64,000 nt of DNA. Origin: Cyanobium sp. E1_MAG_00006. GTDB lineage: Bacteria; Cyanobacteriota; Cyanobacteriia; PCC-6307; Cyanobiaceae. The translations under genes and the position numbers were made by a program. Numbering within the stretch: the first letter of the stretch is position 1; the number at the start of each line of letters is the position of its first letter. The stretch covers positions 12,455-76,454 of the forward strand of contig JAIYAQ010000021.1 of NCBI GenBank assembly GCA_027488975.1, in the 5' to 3' direction. Shown here piece after piece: positions 28,249 through 38,696 of this stretch. Below the pieces are notes generated by a model that was not told where the DNA came from, made no database searches, and worked only from the letters and a program-made list of their open reading frames with translations.

Positions 28249-31200
28249 TCAGGCGCCAGGGCGCTGCAGACGCACCAGAACGCCACACGCCGGCCGCTCC
28301 TGGCCAAGCGGCAGCAGATCAAGCCGGTAGGGGCCCAGCCGTTGCCCATCGAGGGGCAACCAGGCCGTCAGCCCGAGGAGAGCTTCTCCAGACTGCAGCA
28401 CCTGCCCGGCCTGCTGACGCAGGGAGAGCGGCTGCTGGAGTGACGCGACGCCAGCGGCTGCCGGTGCAACCTCCAGCGCCAGCTGATCCAACAGCGGCTG
28501 CAACGCAGCACCGGCCCCCACCCCCAGGGCTTCGGCGAAGCCGGCATTGCTGTGGGCCAACCGCAGCGCCCCATCAAGCAGTGCCAGCGGGGAGGCCTCC
28601 CCAGCCGCCAGGGTCTTGAAGCCGGCGGCCAGCAGCTCGGTGGTCCGGGAAAGCTGGGTCTGGCGGGTCACATCGGCGAGGGTGCCGACCACGCCGTGAT
28701 CGTTGCTGTCCTCCAGCACCGTGGCCATCTCCTGCAGGGTTCGCTCCTGCCCGTCGCGCCGGATCAGGCGATAGGTCACGCTCCAGCCCACCTGTTGCAT
28801 GCCGCGCGCCGCGGCCACCGCAAGGCGGTCGTCCGGGTGAATGGCGTCGTCCAGCAGCGCTGAATTGCGGCAGAGCTCCTCAGCACTCCAGCCCGTGAGG
28901 CCCTCGATGCGTCGGCTGAGATACAGGATGCGCCGCATCGTGTGATCCCGCTTCCAGACCACCTGATCGAGGGCATCAGCCAGGCTCGCGAACTCGCGCA
29001 GGGAGGCTTCCGCCACCCGCCGCAGAGCCACCAGCTCGGAGACATCCGTGAGGGTGAGGATGGCGCCGAGTCGGCCGCCGTGGCGGTCGCGGTAGGGCAT
29101 GATCTGCGCCAGGTAGGCCACCTCCTCGCTGGCGGCTTCGATGCTGCGCCGCTCGTCGCCGTTCACCACCGCCAGCAGGGCATCGCGCAGCCCCGGCAGC
29201 GGCACGGTGGTGGGCACGCCGATCAGCGGCTGACCCACATCGCTGTCCACCAGTCCGAACACCCGCACCGCCAGCGGTGAGAAGCGGCTGATGCGCAGCT
29301 CGCGATCCACGATCACCATCCCTTGGCTCAGGGAGCTCTGGATGTTCTCGAGATCGTTGTTGAGGTGCTCGAGCTGATCGCTGCGGGTGCGCAGCTGCTG
29401 ATTCACCCCCCCCAGCTCCTCATTGGTGGCCTGCAACTCCTCATTCGAGGCCTCCAGCTCCTCATTCGAGGACTGCAACTCCTCCGACGACGCCTGCAGC
29501 TCCTCCGAGGAGGCTTCCAGTTCCTCATTGGCCTGCTCCAGATCCGCCATGGAGCGCCGCAGCGAATCCTGGCTGGCGAGCAGTTCGCGTTCGAGCCGTT
29601 CAATCTCACGGGCGAAGGCGGCATCCCGCTCGGTGATGCCCAGGCCGGCCAGGGGCGACACCGTGTCGCGTTCCTGCCGCACAAAGGAGAGCACCGTGAG
29701 CGCCCGTTCGCCCACCTGCAGTGGTGCCGCCTCCAGGCGGATCGGGCCGGCCAGGCCCGCGAACTGCAGACTGCCGCTGCTGGCGGCGGCGCGATCGGCC
29801 CGCACCAGCAGCAACAGGGCCCGCGCCTCCGACTGCAGCTCATCGCGCAGAAAGGCCCCGGCGGCGGCGGTCATCCGTCCTTCCGGCAGCTTGCAGTACG
29901 GGGAGACATCACCGACCACCTCCACCAGATCGTGGTTTTCATCCACCACGAGGCAGGGATGGGCAAGGGTGCGGATCAGAGCCTCCAGCAAGTGGATGTG
30001 CTGTTCCGGCACCGTTTCGCGCGCGGCGGCCAGGGCATGGACAGGCCGTGGCGGCAGCGCTGCGGCCTGCATCGGCTTGGCCAGGGTGAGCCGGGCGCGG
30101 GCACGCCCCTGGCGGCTGCGCGCGTAGATGCGATGCAGCGGGTTGACCACCGAGAACCCCGAGGTGCGTCCAAGTGATTCGGAGCTGCCCAGGAACAGCA
30201 GTCCACCGTTGTGCAGGGAGAAGCCGAACAGATCGATCACCCGCTCCTGCAGGGGCGCCGTGAAATAGATCAGCGCATTGCGGCAGGAGATCAGGTCGAT
30301 GTTGGGGAAGGGCGGATCCTCGCTGACGTTGTGGCGCGCGAACACGATGCAGCTGCGCAGCTCCTTGCCGATCTCGAAGTTGTTCTCGTGGCGCACGGCG
30401 AAGCGCTCGAACAACGCCTCCGGGATCGCCTTGGCCGCAGAGATCGGGTAGAGCCCCCGGCGACCGATCGCCAGGCTCTGCTCATCAAGATCGGTGGCGA
30501 AGATCTTGAGCTGCTGGCTGAGGTCGGCTGGATGCCCCAGCACCTCGCTCACGAGCATGCCGATGGAGTAGGCCTCCTCGCCGGTGGCACAGGCCGGCAC
30601 CCACACCCGCAGACAATCGCCGGGATCACGGCGAGCGAGCAGCGGCTCCAGCTGGCGGCCGAGGGCGGCGAAGGCATCCGGATTGCGGAAGAAGGAGGTC
30701 ACCGTAACCAGCAGGTTCTGCAGCAGGGCCTGCCCCTCGCTGGGATCCGTGGACAGCAACGGCAGGTAGTCCTCAAGGTTGTGCACGCCGCGGATCGCCA
30801 TGCGCCGCTGCACCTGGCGCCGCAGCGTCGATTCCTTGTACTGGGAGAAATCCACGCCGGTGCACTGCTTCAGCTGTGCGGCGGCGCTGGTGAGCAGCAG
30901 CGGCGCCGTGTCGTCCTCCAGGCGGCTGGTCCAGTCGCGGCCACTACTGAACCAGGCGCAGAGCTGGGCGCCGAGGGCGGCCGGATCAGCCACCAGATCC
31001 ACACGGCCCAGGGCGATCGCCGCCCGCGGCATGCCATCGAAGCGAGCGCTTTCGGGTGCCTGCACCAGCGTGAGTCCGCCGGCACCGCCCACCGCCCGCA
31101 GCCCACAGGCCCCATCCGAGCCGGTGCCGGAGAGCACCACGGCCACCCCCCGCTCGCCCCAGCTGGCCGCCAGCGATTCGAACAGGGCATCAATGGAAGG

Positions 31201-31521
31201 GCTCGGCCCGAACCGCGGCTCAGGCGGCACCAGGCGCAGGCTGCCGTCGTCGAAGCTGGCATCGCAGTTCGGCGGCAGCACAACGATCTGCCCAGGCTGC
31301 AGCGGGGTCAGGTCTGTGGCGGCGACCACCGGCAACCGCGTGCAGCGCCTGAGCAGCTCTACCAGCTGGCTGGGATGCTCAGGCGCGAGATGCTGAGCCA
31401 CCACGTAAGTGGCAGTGCCACCCGGCGGCAGCGGGCCCAGCAACTCCTGAATCGCCTCCAGCCCACCCGCCGACGCTCCGATGACGACCACACGGTCGAG
31501 GCCTGCTGCACTGGAATCCAT
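28249..31521 (-). CDS. CheB methylesterase-CheR methyltransferase-coiled coil-PAS fusion
   Basis: CheB GASAGG, QHL, LSGTGSDG; CheR VTSFFRN, WVPACATGEEAYS, IFATD, DLISCRN; EELQSSNEEL heptads; PAS IHPDD; no kinase domain. Confidence 0.9.
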   Translation of the reverse strand: MDSSAAGLDRVVVIGASAGGLEAIQELLGPLPPGGTATYVVAQHLAPEHPSQLVELLRRCTRLPVVAATDLTPLQPGQIVVLPPNCDASFDDGSLRLVPPEPRFGPSPSIDALFESLAASWGERGVAVVLSGTGSDGACGLRAVGGAGGLTLVQAPESARFDGMPRAAIALGRVDLVADPAALGAQLCAWFSSGRDWTSRLEDDTAPLLLTSAAAQLKQCTGVDFSQYKESTLRRQVQRRMAIRGVHNLEDYLPLLSTDPSEGQALLQNLLVTVTSFFRNPDAFAALGRQLEPLLARRDPGDCLRVWVPACATGEEAYSIGMLVSEVLGHPADLSQQLKIFATDLDEQSLAIGRRGLYPISAAKAIPEALFERFAVRHENNFEIGKELRSCIVFARHNVSEDPPFPNIDLISCRNALIYFTAPLQERVIDLFGFSLHNGGLLFLGSSESLGRTSGFSVVNPLHRIYARSRQGRARARLTLAKPMQAAALPPRPVHALAAARETVPEQHIHLLEALIRTLAHPCLVVDENHDLVEVVGDVSPYCKLPEGRMTAAAGAFLRDELQSEARALLLLVRADRAAASSGSLQFAGLAGPIRLEAAPLQVGERALTVLSFVRQERDTVSPLAGLGITERDAAFAREIERLERELLASQDSLRRSMADLEQANEELEASSEELQASSEELQSSNEELEASNEELQATNEELGGVNQQLRTRSDQLEHLNNDLENIQSSLSQGMVIVDRELRISRFSPLAVRVFGLVDSDVGQPLIGVPTTVPLPGLRDALLAVVNGDERRSIEAASEEVAYLAQIMPYRDRHGGRLGAILTLTDVSELVALRRVAEASLREFASLADALDQVVWKRDHTMRRILYLSRRIEGLTGWSAEELCRNSALLDDAIHPDDRLAVAAARGMQQVGWSVTYRLIRRDGQERTLQEMATVLEDSNDHGVVGTLADVTRQTQLSRTTELLAAGFKTLAAGEASPLALLDGALRLAHSNAGFAEALGVGAGAALQPLLDQLALEVAPAAAGVASLQQPLSLRQQAGQVLQSGEALLGLTAWLPLDGQRLGPYRLDLLPLGQERPACGVLVRLQRPGA

Positions 31522-33924: not shown

Positions 33925-34848
33925 TCAGTGGGCGGCCTCAATCGGCCGCGCGCTGAACAGGCTTGCCACCCCCTTGAGCGCGATCTGCTGCGCAGGGCCG
34001 ATCCGCAGACCGCTGTCATCGCTGAGCTGGTCCACCAGTGCCTGCGATGCCAGCAGGGGTTTCTGCAGCACCTTGGTCTGCCCCTCAAGCCGGCTGGCGA
34101 TGTTCACCGTGTCGCCCACGAGCCCGAAGCGCAGGTCATCACTGGGGCCCACCTTGCCCACGATCACCGGGCCGAAATGAATGCCCACACCGATGGCCAG
34201 TTTCACATCGAAATCACGCTCAATCACCCGGGAGAGCGTCTGGATCCGCTCCAGCATTTCCAGGCCGGCATCCACCGCCTGGCGGCAACCGATGCGCGGG
34301 TCGGTCTCCAGACCAAAGACGGCACTGATCTCATCACCGACGTAGAGATTCACCAGACCGCCATGCTTGACGATCACCTGCTTGAGGGCAGAGAAGTAGC
34401 GGTTGAGGATATAGATCACATCGAAGGCTGGGCAGGATTCGGTGATCGGCGTGAAGTTGCGCATATCCGCAAACAACACCGATACCGATAGCGAGCGGAT
34501 CTGACCGAGCCCCTCCTGCTTCTCCAGCCATCGCTGACGCTTCTTTTCCTCCGGCGGCGTGATCAGCCGCTTCACGGTCACGCGCCCTGGGCCTGTGATG
34601 CGCGTGGTACAGGCCAGGCGGATGTTATCCGGCCAGCGGCGACGCTCGGCCAGCAGCATTTCCGCATCACTGCGCGGTGCCAGCTGATCCAGGCCCTCAA
34701 TCACCTCCACCCGGCAGGTGGAGCAGATGCCGTTGCCGCCGCAGGCCGCCACGGTTGGGATCTCAGACGCAACGGCGATATCGAGCTGGCTGGAATCCGG
34801 TGGAAACCAAGGACACGACAGGGCCGCGCAGTCGAATGTGATCGCCAT
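33925..34848 (-). CDS. class III nucleotidyl cyclase with N-terminal 2Fe-2S ferredoxin domain
   Basis: CGGNGICSTCRV...RLAC; LFADMRNFT, YVGDE, GIHFG, GDTVNIASRLE. Confidence 0.9.
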   Translation of the reverse strand: MAITFDCAALSCPWFPPDSSQLDIAVASEIPTVAACGGNGICSTCRVEVIEGLDQLAPRSDAEMLLAERRRWPDNIRLACTTRITGPGRVTVKRLITPPEEKKRQRWLEKQEGLGQIRSLSVSVLFADMRNFTPITESCPAFDVIYILNRYFSALKQVIVKHGGLVNLYVGDEISAVFGLETDPRIGCRQAVDAGLEMLERIQTLSRVIERDFDVKLAIGVGIHFGPVIVGKVGPSDDLRFGLVGDTVNIASRLEGQTKVLQKPLLASQALVDQLSDDSGLRIGPAQQIALKGVASLFSARPIEAAH

Positions 34849-34957
34849 TGGACCAACCTCAAAGGACCCACCCGAGTCGGTGAGTTGCAACAGGTACCGC
34901 AACAATCCCCCAGCCCCTTAAGGTTTACTTTAGAAAGCGGGCACTCGGAGGCTGCCG

Positions 34958-35045: not shown

Positions 35046-36812
35046 TCAGGCCCCATCGAAACGGCCGCCAGCGCCACTGCTGGCCAGTGCCACGCCCTCC
35101 TCCTGCATCGCCACCAAGATCCGCCGCAGCAGCTCCCGCTGGGCGGCCCATTGCCCGCCGGCCTTGGTGGTGAGCACGATGCTGAGGTCGATGGCCGTCG
35201 GCGTGACCTGTTTCACTCCGCGCAACCAGGGCGGAGCGAGCAGCTGATCGCTCCAGTGCGGATCGGCGGCAAACACCTCGCATTCACGGGCCAGCAGGGC
35301 CAGGGCCCGCTCAATCTGGGCATGCTGCGGCTCCAGGGGGATCAGCACCTCAATGCCGGAGCGAAGCTTGGTGTGGTTGATCAGCTGCTGCGGCGCGCTG
35401 TTGGCGAACTGCACCGCGCGCTGATCACTGGTGCGCAGCTCCGTCATCAGGATGCCGACATCCACCACCTCGCCAGTCACGCCGTTCACCTCCACCACGT
35501 CGCCAACGGCGTAGTGATCATCAAGCAGCGCAACCAGGCCGGCCACCCCATCACGCAGCAGCCCCTGGAAAGCGATCGCCAGACCACCCAGCAGGGCGCC
35601 TCCAGCCAGCCAGGCGCCGACGGTGAGTTGACGGATCCCCGGAACATCGGCCAACACAAGCACCACCAGCGCCCCGATGCATCCCAGATCGATCAGGCGA
35701 TGGCTGACCTGGCTGAGGTTGAGGTAGCGCTGCTTCCGGCGCGCCCGCTCCGCCAGAGGCACCGCCAGGCTGCTGACCCACTGGCGCAGCACGAACCGCG
35801 CCAGCCAGCGCAGGGCGGCGGCGCACAAGCCGAGCAGAGCGATCTTGAACAGGATCGACAGGGGCTGCATCAGCACCGCAATCGCCACCGGGATCCGGCC
35901 CGGGATGGCGCTGACCAACAGGCCCGCCAGCATCACCAGCTGCGCAAGAACCGCCACAAACAACAGGCGCAGCAGCCACTGAATCCGCCACGGGCGGCTG
36001 AACACCGCTGATCCATCGGGTGCAACCTGATCGCTCTGGCGCTGCAGCTGCCGTCGCAGCCTCGCCCAAAAAGCGACGGTGATGGCGCAGGTGCCCGCCA
36101 GCAGCAGGGCCGAGATCAGCACGATCTTCAGCCGCAGGGCGAGCTGGCTCTCCTGCATGGTGAAGCGGGCATGGCGCAGACGCCGCTGCAGCACCTGCTG
36201 CCAGCGTCGGGCGAGCTGGTCGCGGCTCAGGCCGTGCAATTGCGCATCGGCCTCCGTCACCGTGAGCAGCGGCAGGGGGGCGGAGCGTCCCTTGATCCGG
36301 GCCTGCAGCTGCAGCTGGCCATCGGCTCCGCTGCTCACGGCGACGGCCAGATCCTGGGGTGGGCCGAGGACCGACCAGGGATCACCGCTGCAGAGGCGCT
36401 GGGTGGACGGACCACCCAGAACAAGGCCCTCCAGGATGGCCTCGGCGATCCCCTCACCACCGCTGCAGAGGGTATGGGGCTCGTAGAGCAGGCTGAGATT
36501 GCCTTCAATCACCGCGGCGCGCTGACGCGCATCCGGCGCATCCTCTCCGCGGCTCACCACCGGCGCCGCCACGCTGATGGCCGGAATGCCAAGGATGCGA
36601 ACCGGCGCCACGTCGTAACTCCCAACCGCCTCGATCGGCTCCGCCACGGGGCTGCTGGGTTCAGCTGCGAGCCCTGCGGCGCTCAACAGGGTCAGGCTCA
36701 GCACCAGGAGCCCGAGGCTCCGCTTCAGCCAGCGCAGGAGCCCTGAGCGCGTGCGCCCAGAGTGGTGAGCGGTCCGCCAAGTCACAACGTCTGCAGCGGG
36801 AAACATCCGCAT
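35046..36812 (-). CDS. MscS-family mechanosensitive channel with large periplasmic N-domain
   Basis: GLAIAFQGLLRDGVAG..L....YAVGD.V.....G.V........ELR; start uncertain. Confidence 0.85.
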   Translation of the reverse strand: MRMFPAADVVTWRTAHHSGRTRSGLLRWLKRSLGLLVLSLTLLSAAGLAAEPSSPVAEPIEAVGSYDVAPVRILGIPAISVAAPVVSRGEDAPDARQRAAVIEGNLSLLYEPHTLCSGGEGIAEAILEGLVLGGPSTQRLCSGDPWSVLGPPQDLAVAVSSGADGQLQLQARIKGRSAPLPLLTVTEADAQLHGLSRDQLARRWQQVLQRRLRHARFTMQESQLALRLKIVLISALLLAGTCAITVAFWARLRRQLQRQSDQVAPDGSAVFSRPWRIQWLLRLLFVAVLAQLVMLAGLLVSAIPGRIPVAIAVLMQPLSILFKIALLGLCAAALRWLARFVLRQWVSSLAVPLAERARRKQRYLNLSQVSHRLIDLGCIGALVVLVLADVPGIRQLTVGAWLAGGALLGGLAIAFQGLLRDGVAGLVALLDDHYAVGDVVEVNGVTGEVVDVGILMTELRTSDQRAVQFANSAPQQLINHTKLRSGIEVLIPLEPQHAQIERALALLARECEVFAADPHWSDQLLAPPWLRGVKQVTPTAIDLSIVLTTKAGGQWAAQRELLRRILVAMQEEGVALASSGAGGRFDGA

Positions 36813-36840
36813 GCTGGCGGCAGCTTCAGCGGCAGGCAGC

Positions 36841-36867
36841 AAAAACCCCCGGGGAGAGCCCGAGGGT
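36841..36867 (-). terminator. intrinsic terminator on the minus strand, just upstream of mscS
   Basis: 9-bp stem whose only mismatch becomes a G-U pair on the minus strand, 5-nt loop, then a U-run. Confidence 0.7.
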
Positions 36868-37408: not shown

Positions 37409-37624
37409 TTGCCCCAGCCCGCGTTCCAGTACGAGCCGCTTGAGAAGTTCGGCGAAGGGCTCACCACGCGCCGCCCCTGGAACACGGAAGCCCTGGCAGG
37501 GGTGGAGCGCCTCAATGGCCGCGTGGCGATGCTCGGCTTCGCCGCAGCCCTGATCGGCGAATGGCTCACCGGCCATGGCCCTGCGGGCCAGCTGCTGGCG
37601 GTGCTGCGCTGGTATCTGAGCTGA
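37409..37624 (+). CDS. hli: high-light-inducible protein (HLIP)
   Basis: ERLNGRVAMLGF chlorophyll-binding motif. Confidence 0.9.
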   Translation: MPQPAFQYEPLEKFGEGLTTRRPWNTEALAGVERLNGRVAMLGFAAALIGEWLTGHGPAGQLLAVLRWYLS

Positions 37625-38411: not shown

Positions 38412-38696
38412 ATGGCCAACTACACCATCCAGATCGAAGCGGGCAGCAGCTTCACCTGCAGCGAAGACACCTACATCCTCGATGCGGCCGAGGATCAGGG
38501 TATCGACCTGCCCTATTCCTGCCGGGCCGGCGCCTGCAGCACCTGTGCGGCACAACTGGTGAGCGGCAATGTGGATCAGGCTGATCAATCCTTCCTTGAC
38601 GACGACCAGATGAGCCAGGGCTACGCCCTGCTCTGCGTGAGCTATCCCCAGTCGGACTGCACCATTCGGACCGGGGTGGAAGAGGAGCTTCTCTGA
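38412..38696 (+). CDS. petF: plant-type 2Fe-2S ferredoxin (PetF paralog)
   Basis: [23 protein letters not shown]...DQSFLDDDQ...LLCV.YP.SD. Confidence 0.93.

What the first reader, a model, noticed from the sequence alone, without database searches (positions are those of the whole stretch)
33925..34848. 2Fe-2S ferredoxin-fused class III cyclase with non-canonical base-specificity residues
Seen: metal-binding Asp residues (FADMR, VGDE) and the NxxxR transition-state pair are intact. The purine-selecting position reads L-Y-V-G-D instead of K (adenylyl) or E (guanylyl), and the second position is Gly (FGLVGD) instead of D/T (adenylyl) or C (guanylyl). As I recall, Gly occurs there in the Synechocystis guanylyl cyclase Cya2. 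Inference: a redox/Fe-sensing cyclase that may make a non-cAMP nucleotide or need a heterodimer partner.
Basis: partly seen in the sequence, partly recalled or inferred. Interest (0 to 1): 0.65.

Follow-up and report, generated by a model that had tools for sequence, protein, structure and literature searches.

The report
Ferredoxin-fused cyclase with Leu-Gly base pocket
This picocyanobacterial gene encodes an iron-sulfur (2Fe-2S) domain fused to a cyclic-nucleotide cyclase whose two base-selecting residues are Leu and Gly; the pair is conserved across a whole clade rather than being a one-off defect, so this is an untested, probably redox-controlled signalling enzyme whose product is unknown.

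Summary
Window 33925..34848 (-) encodes a 307-aa protein with an N-terminal 2Fe-2S ferredoxin domain (four invariant Cys) and a class III cyclase domain. Both metal Asp, the transition-state Asn/Arg and the phosphate Arg/Lys are intact. The base-specifying positions are Leu168 and Gly242. They align with Glu488 and Gly562 of the Synechocystis guanylyl cyclase Cya2, the best solved match.

Leu-Gly is not strain-specific. It is invariant in a monophyletic picocyanobacterial clade (59 sequences, down to 47% identity) that is under purifying selection (dN/dS about 0.08-0.13). It is the only cyclase-homology domain in a 99.98% complete genome, so the enzyme must work as a homodimer. The heterodimer idea fails.

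The gene is rare: about 5 of 301 family genomes. Even so, it repeatedly sits beside cyclic-nucleotide signalling genes such as GAF-HD-GYP, a CRP-type regulator, cNMP-binding proteins and MscS channels.

My best reading is an active cyclase regulated by its Fe-S cluster, with a hydrophobic, low-selectivity purine pocket, probably making cAMP. The product is not determined. A cGMP or non-canonical product is not excluded.

No characterised Fe-S-fused cyclase turned up in the searched literature. I rate this a new variant of a known kind, of moderate interest.

The parts
33925..34848 (-). Whole gene: Fer2-cyclase fusion, 307 aa plus TGA stop
   Evidence: ORF list. Pfam Fer2 + Guanylate_cyc. Homologs of about 305 aa start at the same Met.
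34567..34845 (-). 2Fe-2S ferredoxin domain (aa 2-94). Cluster ligands Cys36 (34741-34743), Cys42 (34723-34725), Cys45 (34714-34716), Cys80 (34609-34611), spacing C-x5-C-x2-C-x34-C.
   Evidence: Pfam PF00111. The four Cys are invariant in 63 diverse homologs and in about 145 of 150 superfamily representatives. Best solved relatives are PnsB3, terpredoxin, putidaredoxin and adrenodoxin. AF2 pLDDT is 83-95.
34498..34566 (-). Conserved interdomain linker (aa 95-117; ITPPxExK...KQxGLGxIR), predicted helix 99-112 followed by a flexible hinge
   Evidence: P98, P99, E101, Q111, G113, L114, G115 and I117 are invariant in the clade. pLDDT is low at 105-120.
34479..34490 (-). Strain-specific in-frame 6-bp tandem duplication (TATCGG x2). 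It adds Ser-Val at the start of strand beta1, about 6 residues before the metal Asp128.
   Evidence: DNA alignment with L002 shows a 6-base gap. The insertion is absent from all 28 aligned clade members. Coordinates.
33934..34497 (-). Class III cyclase homology domain (aa 118-305)
   Evidence: Pfam PF00211 71 bits. PDB phmmer best hit Cya2 2W01, E 3e-20. Foldseek target-normalised TM 0.85-0.90 to CyaC, CyaB and Cya2.
34465..34467 (-). Asp128, first metal-binding Asp (FADMR)
   Evidence: Invariant. Aligns with Cya2 D448.
34345..34347 (-). Leu168, at the position of the adenine-selecting Lys or guanine-selecting Glu
   Evidence: Aligns with Cya2 Glu488, the engineered Lys of 6FHT and the bPAC Lys. 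Invariant in the 59-member clade.
34333..34335 (-). Asp172, second metal-binding Asp (VGDE). It is followed by Glu173, a signature shared only with the sister Gln clade.
34123..34125 (-). Gly242, second base-specifying position (Asp/Thr in adenylyl cyclases, Cys/Ser in guanylyl cyclases, Gly in Cya2)
   Evidence: Aligns with Cya2 Gly562 and the bPAC Thr. Invariant in the clade.
34090..34104 (-). Asn249...Arg253 transition-state pair (VNIASR). Ser252 sits where Cya2 has the GTP-favouring Tyr.
33973..33975 (-). Lys292 (LKG), equivalent to the terminal-phosphate Lys (Cya2 K608)
   Evidence: Nearly invariant L291, K292, G293. Residue list.
35046..36842 (-). MscS-family channel gene directly upstream on the same strand (197-bp gap). 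A possible but unproven functional partner.
   Evidence: Pfam MS_channel_2nd. The same arrangement is seen in L003. An unrelated MscS with a cNMP-binding domain lies next to the ortholog in L117. The gene is replaced by other genes in the closest relative L002.

Best explanation
The gene encodes a soluble, homodimeric class III nucleotidyl cyclase whose activity is set by an N-terminal 2Fe-2S ferredoxin domain. That domain would report the redox state, or the presence, of the cluster. In practice this means photosynthetic or ferredoxin-pool redox poise, oxidative stress or iron supply. The signal would pass through a conserved Pro-Pro/helix linker to the catalytic dimer.

The catalytic machinery is complete. 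The base pocket has been remodelled into an uncharged, mostly hydrophobic cavity lined by Leu168, Val170, Gly242, Leu243 and Ser252. This arose once, from a Gln-bearing ancestor, and has been kept since.

Such a pocket should select the purine by shape and backbone contacts rather than by a Lys or Glu side chain. I therefore expect cAMP as the main product in vivo, possibly with substantial cGMP side activity. The product would then be read by cNMP-binding and GAF proteins.

Shown here: the domains, the residue mapping, the conservation, the purifying selection, the single cyclase in the genome and the gene neighbourhoods. Inferred: cluster binding, redox regulation, catalytic activity and product identity.
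For: **Anatomy**
- Fer2 and Guanylate_cyc both score above their Pfam cut-offs.
- All catalytic residues are present and conserved.
- The model is confident and the cyclase domain matches class IIIb structures.

**Function is maintained**
- Leu-Gly is invariant in a 59-row clade with SH-aLRT support 99.
- dN/dS is 0.079 between the window and L002, and 0.10-0.13 for other close pairs.
- Several other pocket-region positions co-vary with the pair: F142, E173, S175, P235, L239, L243. This points to remodelling, not decay.

**Homodimer**
- There is a single PF00211 hit in the 99.98% complete genome.

**Embedded in cNMP signalling**
- GAF-HD-GYP is the divergent neighbour in L006, L111, L118 and L119.
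- L117 carries a CRP-type regulator with an Arg-Ser-Ala phosphate-binding cassette, a cNMP-binding protein, and an MscS channel with a cNMP-binding domain.
- L113-L115 carry a cNMP-binding protein and a GAF-GAF-PAS Lys-Thr cyclase.
- L002 carries GAF-PAS-GGDEF-EAL.

**Shares a candidate receptor with ordinary adenylyl cyclases**
- The only cNMP-binding domain in this genome with a near-canonical cassette belongs to an 881-aa Fer4_5 membrane protein.
- That protein is present in 8 of 11 genomes with a strong cyclase domain and in 1 of 10 without (Fisher p = 0.0075).
- It is present in three genomes where the Leu-Gly enzyme is the only cyclase found at the threshold used.
- The other picocyanobacterial cyclases are Lys-Thr or Lys-Ala.

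**The Lys position is variable in this superfamily**
- Among 150 representatives it is K, N, Q, A, M, V, T, S, D, R, E or L, with catalytic residues kept.
- Side-chain recognition at this position is therefore not obligatory in this lineage.
Against: - No activity, cluster or product data exist. Everything about the product is indirect.
- In canonical adenylyl cyclases the Lys is important for catalysis as well as selectivity (general knowledge of Rv1625c and mammalian enzymes), so a Leu enzyme could be weak.
- The receptor co-occurrence is with cyclases in general. It is not corrected for phylogeny and rests on 21 genomes.
- Genomes of the same genus that lack any cyclase domain still carry 7-8 cNMP-binding domains, so these domains alone do not prove cNMP signalling.
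- Neighbourhoods are not conserved across the clade: sigma-70 and MgtE in L004, GH63 in L007, none informative in L116.
- GAF domains bind many ligands.
- The gene is rare and has been lost or pseudogenised in relatives (G022 frameshift plus stop), so it is dispensable.
- This particular copy carries a 2-residue insertion at the linker/beta1 junction, with unknown effect.
Confidence: 0.5

Rival explanations
1. The remodelled Leu-Gly pocket gives a different product. It could be a dedicated guanylyl cyclase, since Gly is shared with Cya2 and Glu173 might stand in for the missing Glu. It could instead be a pyrimidine (cCMP/cUMP) cyclase used for housekeeping signalling.
For: - The best solved sequence match is the guanylyl cyclase Cya2, which has Gly at the second position.
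- Glu173 next to the metal Asp is a clade signature shared with the Gln clade and absent from Lys-Thr relatives.
- An MscS neighbour in L117 has an Arg-Thr-Ala cassette.
- Pyrimidine cyclases are known to use quite different specificity residues from purine cyclases, so unusual pairs can mean unusual products.
Against: - The guanine-binding Glu is absent.
- The Cya2 Tyr that boosts GTP use is Ser here, as in adenylyl cyclases.
- Matches to PADLOC PycC models are unspecific. A Lys-Thr relative scores higher, 105 bits against 64.5.
- No Pycsar-type effector is adjacent.
- The adjacent CRP-type regulator in L117 has an Arg-Ser-Ala cassette, as in cAMP receptors.
Confidence: 0.22
2. The cyclase domain is catalytically weak or dead. 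The protein would then act as a redox-sensing scaffold or nucleotide-binding regulator rather than as a second-messenger source.
For: - Loss of the Lys or Glu side chain often lowers activity strongly in canonical enzymes (general knowledge).
- One subclade (P0032, P0033, P0045) has also replaced the transition-state Asn by Ile.
- The gene is patchy and has been lost or pseudogenised in relatives.
- This copy has a 2-aa insertion at beta1.
Against: - Both metal Asp, Arg130, Asn249, Arg253 and Lys292 are invariant or nearly so across the clade, under dN/dS of about 0.1. That is hard to explain without catalysis.
- Ma1120 lacks the Asn and is still active.
- The gene is repeatedly placed beside cNMP receptors.
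Confidence: 0.12
3. The protein supplies only half of an active site and needs a second cyclase subunit (heterodimer).
For: In one lineage the ortholog lies two genes from a GAF-GAF-PAS Lys-Thr cyclase.
Against: - This genome (99.98% complete) has a single cyclase homology domain.
- G235 and G249 also show only this one at the threshold used.
- One chain carries both the metal-binding residues and the base and transition-state residues, as homodimeric class III enzymes do.
Confidence: 0.03

Closest known systems
Cya2 guanylyl cyclase of Synechocystis PCC 6803 (PDB 2W01)
   Same: - Best solved sequence match (E 3e-20).
- Same class IIIb-like fold (target-normalised TM 0.85-0.89).
- Homodimeric design.
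- Gly at the second base-specifying position.
   Different: - Cya2 has Glu488 where this protein has Leu168.
- Cya2 has a Tyr before the catalytic Arg where this protein has Ser252.
- Cya2 is a membrane CHASE2 receptor with no Fe-S domain.
Class IIIb soluble adenylyl cyclases CyaC (Spirulina, 1WC1), CyaB (P. aeruginosa, 3R5G), bPAC and OaPAC
   Same: - Top structural matches.
- Same catalytic residues.
- A small sensor domain fused to the N-terminus of the cyclase, as in the BLUF photoactivated cyclases.
   Different: - They carry Lys-Thr (alignment for bPAC).
- Their sensors are BLUF or bicarbonate sites, not an Fe-S cluster.
Mycobacterial cyclases with non-canonical pairs (Rv1900c Asn-Asp, Rv0386 Gln-Asn); cited from my own knowledge, not tested here
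   Same: They are a precedent that class III enzymes lacking the Lys can still be active adenylyl cyclases, sometimes with relaxed specificity.
   Different: - They have polar residues rather than Leu, and no Gly.
- They have different domain partners and are not close relatives.
Wider Fer2-cyclase superfamily (Pfam architecture Fer2 + Guanylate_cyc; also Fer2-globin-cyclase and Fer2-CDGSH-cyclase-Rieske)
   Same: - Same architecture and the same four Cys.
- 426 representatives at E <= 1e-30.
- The Gln-(Ser/Ala/Gly) Fer2-globin clade is the sister group.
   Different: - About two thirds of representatives are Lys-Thr.
- Leu-Gly is confined to the picocyanobacterial clade, 3 of 150 representatives.
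- I found no experimentally characterised member in the searched literature.
Pycsar pyrimidine cyclases (PycC)
   Same: Homologous cyclase fold. PADLOC PycC models match at 64.5 bits.
   Different: - The match is generic, since a Lys-Thr relative scores 105 bits.
- No cNMP-activated TIR or TM effector is adjacent.
- PycC specificity residues lie elsewhere.
PnsB3 (NDF4), the 2Fe-2S subunit of chloroplast NDH
   Same: Closest solved relative of the Fer2 domain (E 6e-9). It shares the CxGxGxCxTCxVE...RLAC pattern.
   Different: PnsB3 is a structural or electron-transfer subunit of a membrane complex, with no cyclase domain.

Membership tests
Class III nucleotidyl cyclase (PF00211) | Profile match above the curated cut-off, and the cyclase fold | tested here: met
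   71 bits against a cut-off of 21.9. AF2 pLDDT 89.9. Foldseek target-normalised TM 0.85-0.90 to CyaC, CyaB and Cya2.
Class III nucleotidyl cyclase (PF00211) | Two metal-binding Asp, transition-state Asn and Arg, phosphate-binding Arg and Lys | tested here: met
   D128, D172, N249, R253, R130 and K292 align with Cya2 D448, D492, N569, R573, R450 and K608. They are invariant or nearly so in the clade.
Class III nucleotidyl cyclase (PF00211) | Dimerisation and NTP-to-cNMP turnover | not testable with these tools
   Needs biochemistry. A single cyclase domain in the genome implies a homodimer.
[quoted passage not shown] | Lys at the first and Asp/Thr at the second base-specifying position | tested here: not met
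   Leu168 and Gly242.
Guanylyl cyclase (Glu + Cys/Ser, or Cya2-type Glu + Gly with Tyr) | Glu at the first position | tested here: not met
   Leu168 aligns with Cya2 Glu488.
Guanylyl cyclase (Glu + Cys/Ser, or Cya2-type Glu + Gly with Tyr) | Gly at the second position, and Tyr before the catalytic Arg (Cya2 type) | tested here: inconclusive
   Gly242 is met. The Tyr is not met, because Ser252 occupies that position.
2Fe-2S ferredoxin (PF00111) | Profile match above the cut-off, and four Cys ligands | tested here: met
   31.7 bits against a cut-off of 21. C36, C42, C45 and C80 are invariant and align with the Cys of PnsB3 and terpredoxin.
2Fe-2S ferredoxin (PF00111) | A bound, redox-active cluster | not testable with these tools
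   Needs UV-visible or EPR spectroscopy on purified protein.
Pycsar (PycC cyclase plus cNMP-activated effector) | A specific PycC match and an adjacent TIR or TM effector with a cNMP-binding domain | tested here: not met
   PycC models score 64.5 bits, but a Lys-Thr relative scores 105 bits. The neighbours are an MscS channel and a secreted 143-aa protein with no PADLOC hit.

The most novel reading that the evidence does not exclude
The Leu-Gly clade may be a redox-gated cyclase with a new nucleotide specificity. It could be a true dual-purine enzyme or produce a non-cAMP/cGMP messenger. It would link the state of an Fe-S cluster, and thus the ferredoxin pool, to MscS-type channels and GAF/cNMP-binding effectors in freshwater picocyanobacteria. 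That would make it the first Fe-S-regulated nucleotidyl cyclase and would define a new specificity code for class III enzymes.
Probability: 0.2. Interest if true: 0.8.

Novelty: new variant of a known kind. Interest (0 to 1): 0.55.

Why it matters
- **New input signal.** Class III cyclases are known to be regulated by light, haem/NO, bicarbonate, pH and small ligands. I found no characterised case of an Fe-S cluster as the sensor. Yet the Fer2-cyclase architecture has hundreds of diverse representatives.
- **Simple test system.** This picocyanobacterial clade is a compact 300-aa soluble protein, and it is the only cyclase domain found in its genome.
- **Specificity rule.** Its conserved Leu-Gly pair, and the wide variation at the Lys position across the superfamily, bear on the textbook rule that Lys-Asp/Thr means ATP and Glu-Cys means GTP.
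- **Physiology.** If the enzyme reports redox or iron status, it would give a direct route from photosynthetic electron flow to cyclic-nucleotide signalling in abundant lake picocyanobacteria.

Tried and rejected
- **Heterodimer partner.** Rejected: there is one PF00211 hit in the whole genome. There is no class I cyclase. One small CYTH ORF exists but such ORFs are widespread, so I did not count it as a partner.
- **Strain-specific degeneration.** Rejected by clade-wide invariance and low dN/dS.
- **Pycsar membership.** Rejected after a control showed the PycC models hit any class III cyclase.
- **Conserved operon partner.** Not found. Synteny differs among L002, L003, L004, L006, L007, L111 and L113-L119. 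Only a loose, recurrent association with GAF, cNMP-binding and MscS genes remains.
- **Window MscS versus the MscS with a cNMP-binding domain in L117.** They are not orthologs, and the window MscS has no detectable cNMP-binding domain.
- **Counting cNMP-binding domains as a proxy for signalling.** Uninformative, because genomes of the genus that lack a cyclase domain still carry 7-8 of them.
- **Promoter and terminator scan around the gene.** Nothing above chance.
- **Literature.** Five searches for an Fe-S or ferredoxin-fused cyclase gave no relevant paper. The Cya2 structure paper itself is not held.
- **Coordinates of the AF2 model.** Not available to scripts, so I could not do pocket geometry or dimer modelling.
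Full report
**What is there**

The finding's coordinates match a minus-strand ORF, 33925..34848, of 307 aa plus a TGA stop. A longer reading from a TTG at 34905 is possible. However, homologs are about 305 aa and start at the same Met-x-Ile/Val-Thr-Phe. The upstream extension is also not conserved in the 95%-identical locus L002.

Pfam finds a 2Fe-2S ferredoxin domain (PF00111, 31.7 bits, cut-off 21). It also finds a class III cyclase domain (PF00211, 71 bits, cut-off 21.9).

An AlphaFold2 model built on 63 homologs is confident (mean pLDDT 89.9). It shows two domains joined by a helix (residues 99-112) and a flexible hinge. The cyclase part superposes on CyaC, P. aeruginosa CyaB and Cya2 at target-normalised TM 0.85-0.90 and rmsd 1.6-2.0 Å.

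**The residues**

The best solved sequence match is the Synechocystis guanylyl cyclase Cya2 (2W01, E 3e-20). In that alignment:
- Asp128 and Asp172 are the metal ligands.
- Asn249 and Arg253 are the transition-state pair.
- Arg130 and Lys292 are the phosphate binders.
- Leu168 lies under Cya2 Glu488, and under the Lys of the engineered 6FHT and of bPAC.
- Gly242 lies under Cya2 Gly562, and under the Thr of bPAC.

A review tabulates exactly these Cya2 residues and describes its 'unusual Glu-Gly pair'. A second paper confirms the E-G pair and the role of a Cya2 Tyr in favouring GTP. That Tyr position is Ser252 here, as in adenylyl cyclases.

**Is Leu-Gly an accident of this strain?**

No, for three reasons.
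- Among 120 homologs from a 5.8-billion-protein search, every member of the close group (95% down to 47% identity) has Leu and Gly at these two positions. This group comes from picocyanobacterial genomes and lake metagenomes, including Cyanobium, Vulcanococcus and 'Synechococcaceae/Prochlorococcaceae' MAGs.
- On a maximum-likelihood tree of the cyclase domain, the 59 Leu-Gly sequences form one clade (SH-aLRT 99). The clade is sister (support 93) to a Gln-(Ser/Ala/Gly) clade, mostly of Fer2-globin-cyclase proteins.
- Pairwise dN/dS is 0.079 for window against L002 (dN 0.024, dS 0.30) and 0.10-0.13 for other close pairs.

Several further positions are fixed in this clade and differ in Lys-Thr relatives: F142, E173, S175, S206, P235, L239 and L243. 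This looks like a remodelled pocket rather than decay.

Mapped onto the pocket residues of mammalian adenylyl cyclase (from my own knowledge of that structure, not tested here), the cavity would be lined by Leu168, Val170, Gly242, Leu243 and Ser252. None of these is a charged side chain.

**The wider family**

An exhaustive HMMER search of 1.84 billion cluster representatives gives 426 proteins at E <= 1e-30. Among the best 150, almost all keep the four Cys and the Asp/Asp/Asn/Arg set. The 'Lys' position, however, varies widely:

| Pair or residue at the 'Lys' position | Representatives |
|---|---|
| Lys-Thr | 96 |
| Asn-Thr/Ser | about 20 |
| Gln-x | about 12 |
| Ala, Met, Val, Thr, Ser, Asp, Arg or Glu | a few each |
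| Leu-Gly | 3 |

Fer2-cyclases are thus a large, uncharacterised family in which the canonical Lys is often dispensable. Leu-Gly is the picocyanobacterial version.

**Partner or no partner**

The window's genome (2.70 Mb, 99.98% complete) contains exactly one cyclase homology domain, and it is this one. It has no class I cyclase and one small CYTH ORF. The enzyme must therefore act as a homodimer, which removes the heterodimer idea.

The other cyclases of related picocyanobacteria are multidomain Lys-Thr or Lys-Ala enzymes.

**Distribution**

The gene is rare.
- In 301 genomes of the family, full-length orthologs occur in five.
- One further genome (G022) has a frameshifted copy carrying a stop, and another (G207) has a fragment.
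- Within the genus, only this genome and the one behind L002 carry it.

It is an accessory gene.

**Neighbourhoods**

There is no conserved operon.

| Locus | Neighbours of the cyclase gene |
|---|---|
| Window, L003 | MscS-family channel directly upstream on the same strand |
| L002 (closest relative) | A bile-acid-type symporter and a GAF-PAS-GGDEF-EAL protein in place of the channel |
| L006, L111, L118, L119 | Gene sits between speA and alaS, divergent from a GAF-HD-GYP protein |
| L113-L115 | A cNMP-binding protein with an ABC/C39 exporter on one side; a GAF-GAF-PAS Lys-Thr cyclase on the other |
| L117 | A CRP-type regulator (cassette ...SRSA...), a second cNMP-binding protein, and an MscS channel with a C-terminal cNMP-binding domain (...ARTA...) |
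| L004, L007, L116 | Nothing suggestive |

The recurrent company of cyclic-nucleotide receptors argues that the enzyme is an active messenger source. The CRP-type Arg-Ser-Ala cassette leans towards cAMP, but only weakly.

**A candidate receptor in this genome**

Of the nine cNMP-binding-domain ORFs, one is NtcA-like and most have degenerate phosphate-binding cassettes. Only one keeps a near-canonical cassette (GELGLITGMPRMATV). It belongs to an 881-aa membrane protein with a Fer4_5 4Fe-4S motif.

Orthologs of this protein are present in 8 of 11 tested genomes with a strong cyclase domain, and in 1 of 10 without. Fisher p is 0.0075, not corrected for phylogeny. The positives include G000, G235 and G249, where the Leu-Gly enzyme is the only cyclase found at the threshold used. 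In the other positive genomes the cyclases present include ordinary multidomain ones, and those sampled across the family are Lys-Thr or Lys-Ala. This suggests that the Leu-Gly enzyme feeds the same kind of receptor as ordinary adenylyl cyclases.

The caveat is that genomes of the genus without a cyclase domain still hold 7-8 cNMP-binding domains.

**The Fer2 domain**

The cluster motif is C36-x5-C42-x2-C45-x34-C80. Its closest solved relatives are the chloroplast NDH subunit PnsB3 (E 6e-9), followed by terpredoxin, putidaredoxin and adrenodoxin. The clade also has an extra invariant Cys7.

A cluster whose oxidation state or integrity controls the catalytic dimer is the obvious mechanism, but it is an inference.

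**This particular copy**

Compared with every homolog, this copy carries an in-frame 6-bp tandem duplication (TATCGG TATCGG, window 34479-34490). It adds Ser-Val at the start of strand beta1, a few residues before Asp128. Linker length often matters in sensor-cyclase fusions, so this could alter regulation.

**Not a defence cyclase**

PADLOC PycC models match at 64.5 bits, but a Lys-Thr family member scores 105 bits. No Pycsar effector is nearby. Pycsar enzymes also choose pyrimidines with residues at other positions.

**Literature**

Five full-text searches found no paper on a ferredoxin- or Fe-S-fused nucleotidyl cyclase. The library lacks most subscription journals. I recall, without a checkable source, that older surveys of class III cyclase domain partners list a ferredoxin-type domain. 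The architecture is therefore probably catalogued but uncharacterised.

**Verdict**

- Best explanation (about 0.5): an active homodimeric cyclase regulated by its Fe-S cluster, with an uncharged, low-selectivity purine pocket, making mainly cAMP.
- Rivals: a different product (about 0.2), a weak or dead enzyme (about 0.1), a heterodimer (about 0.03).
- It is a new variant of a known kind, of moderate interest, and easily testable.

Noticed in passing
window 34479-34490 (-): In-frame 6-bp tandem duplication (TATCGG x2) inside the cyclase gene. It adds Ser-Val at the linker/beta1 junction and is absent from L002 and all other homologs. It could be a real strain variant or an assembly error.
   Followed up: partly
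window 35046-36842 (-) versus L002:685-4221: The MscS-family gene upstream of the cyclase is reduced to short fragments in the 95%-identical relative. That relative has a bile-acid-type symporter and a GAF-PAS-GGDEF-EAL gene there instead. This is a local hotspot of gene turnover.
   Followed up: partly
G000:C39:68682-71324 (locus L121:1183-3828, +): 881-aa membrane protein with a Fer4_5 (4Fe-4S) motif, a long helical region and a C-terminal cNMP-binding domain. It has the only near-canonical phosphate-binding cassette in the genome. Its presence tracks the presence of cyclase domains across 21 genomes (8 of 11 against 1 of 10).
   Followed up: partly
window 28249-31521 (-): 1090-aa CheB-like/CheR-like fusion with a repetitive acidic coiled-coil stretch (EELEASSEELQ...) and C-terminal PAS-like regions. 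It is conserved at 97% in L002. I assigned the domains from the translated sequence alone and ran no domain search.
   Followed up: no
window 34567-34845 (-): The Fer2 domain's closest solved relatives are the chloroplast NDH subunit PnsB3 (E 6e-9), ahead of the adrenodoxin/putidaredoxin-type ferredoxins. This hints at a cyanobacterial origin for that plant subunit's fold family.
   Followed up: no
proteins P0058-P0101 and P0069-P0090 (distant homologs): Related architectures are Fer2-globin-cyclase (base pair Gln-Ser/Ala/Gly, Bacteroidota) and Fer2-CDGSH-cyclase-Rieske (Asn-Thr/Ser, marine Alphaproteobacteria). These are multi-cofactor redox cyclases, and I found no characterised member.
   Followed up: partly
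L117:2380-3294 (P0033; also P0032, P0045): A subclade of the Leu-Gly enzymes has replaced the transition-state Asn by Ile and the preceding Asp by Glu (ETVIIASRLE). Yet it sits among a CRP-type regulator, a cNMP-binding protein and an MscS channel with a cNMP-binding domain.
   Followed up: partly
G022:C1:1138030-1138930 (L096): The ortholog in this related genome is split by a frameshift and carries a TAA stop, so it is a pseudogene. G207 keeps only a fragment.
   Followed up: no
window 37409-37624 (+) and 38412-38696 (+): A high-light-inducible (HLIP-type) protein gene and a plant-type ferredoxin (petF-like) gene lie within 4 kb of the cyclase. I identified both by reading the translations and did not test them.
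   Followed up: no
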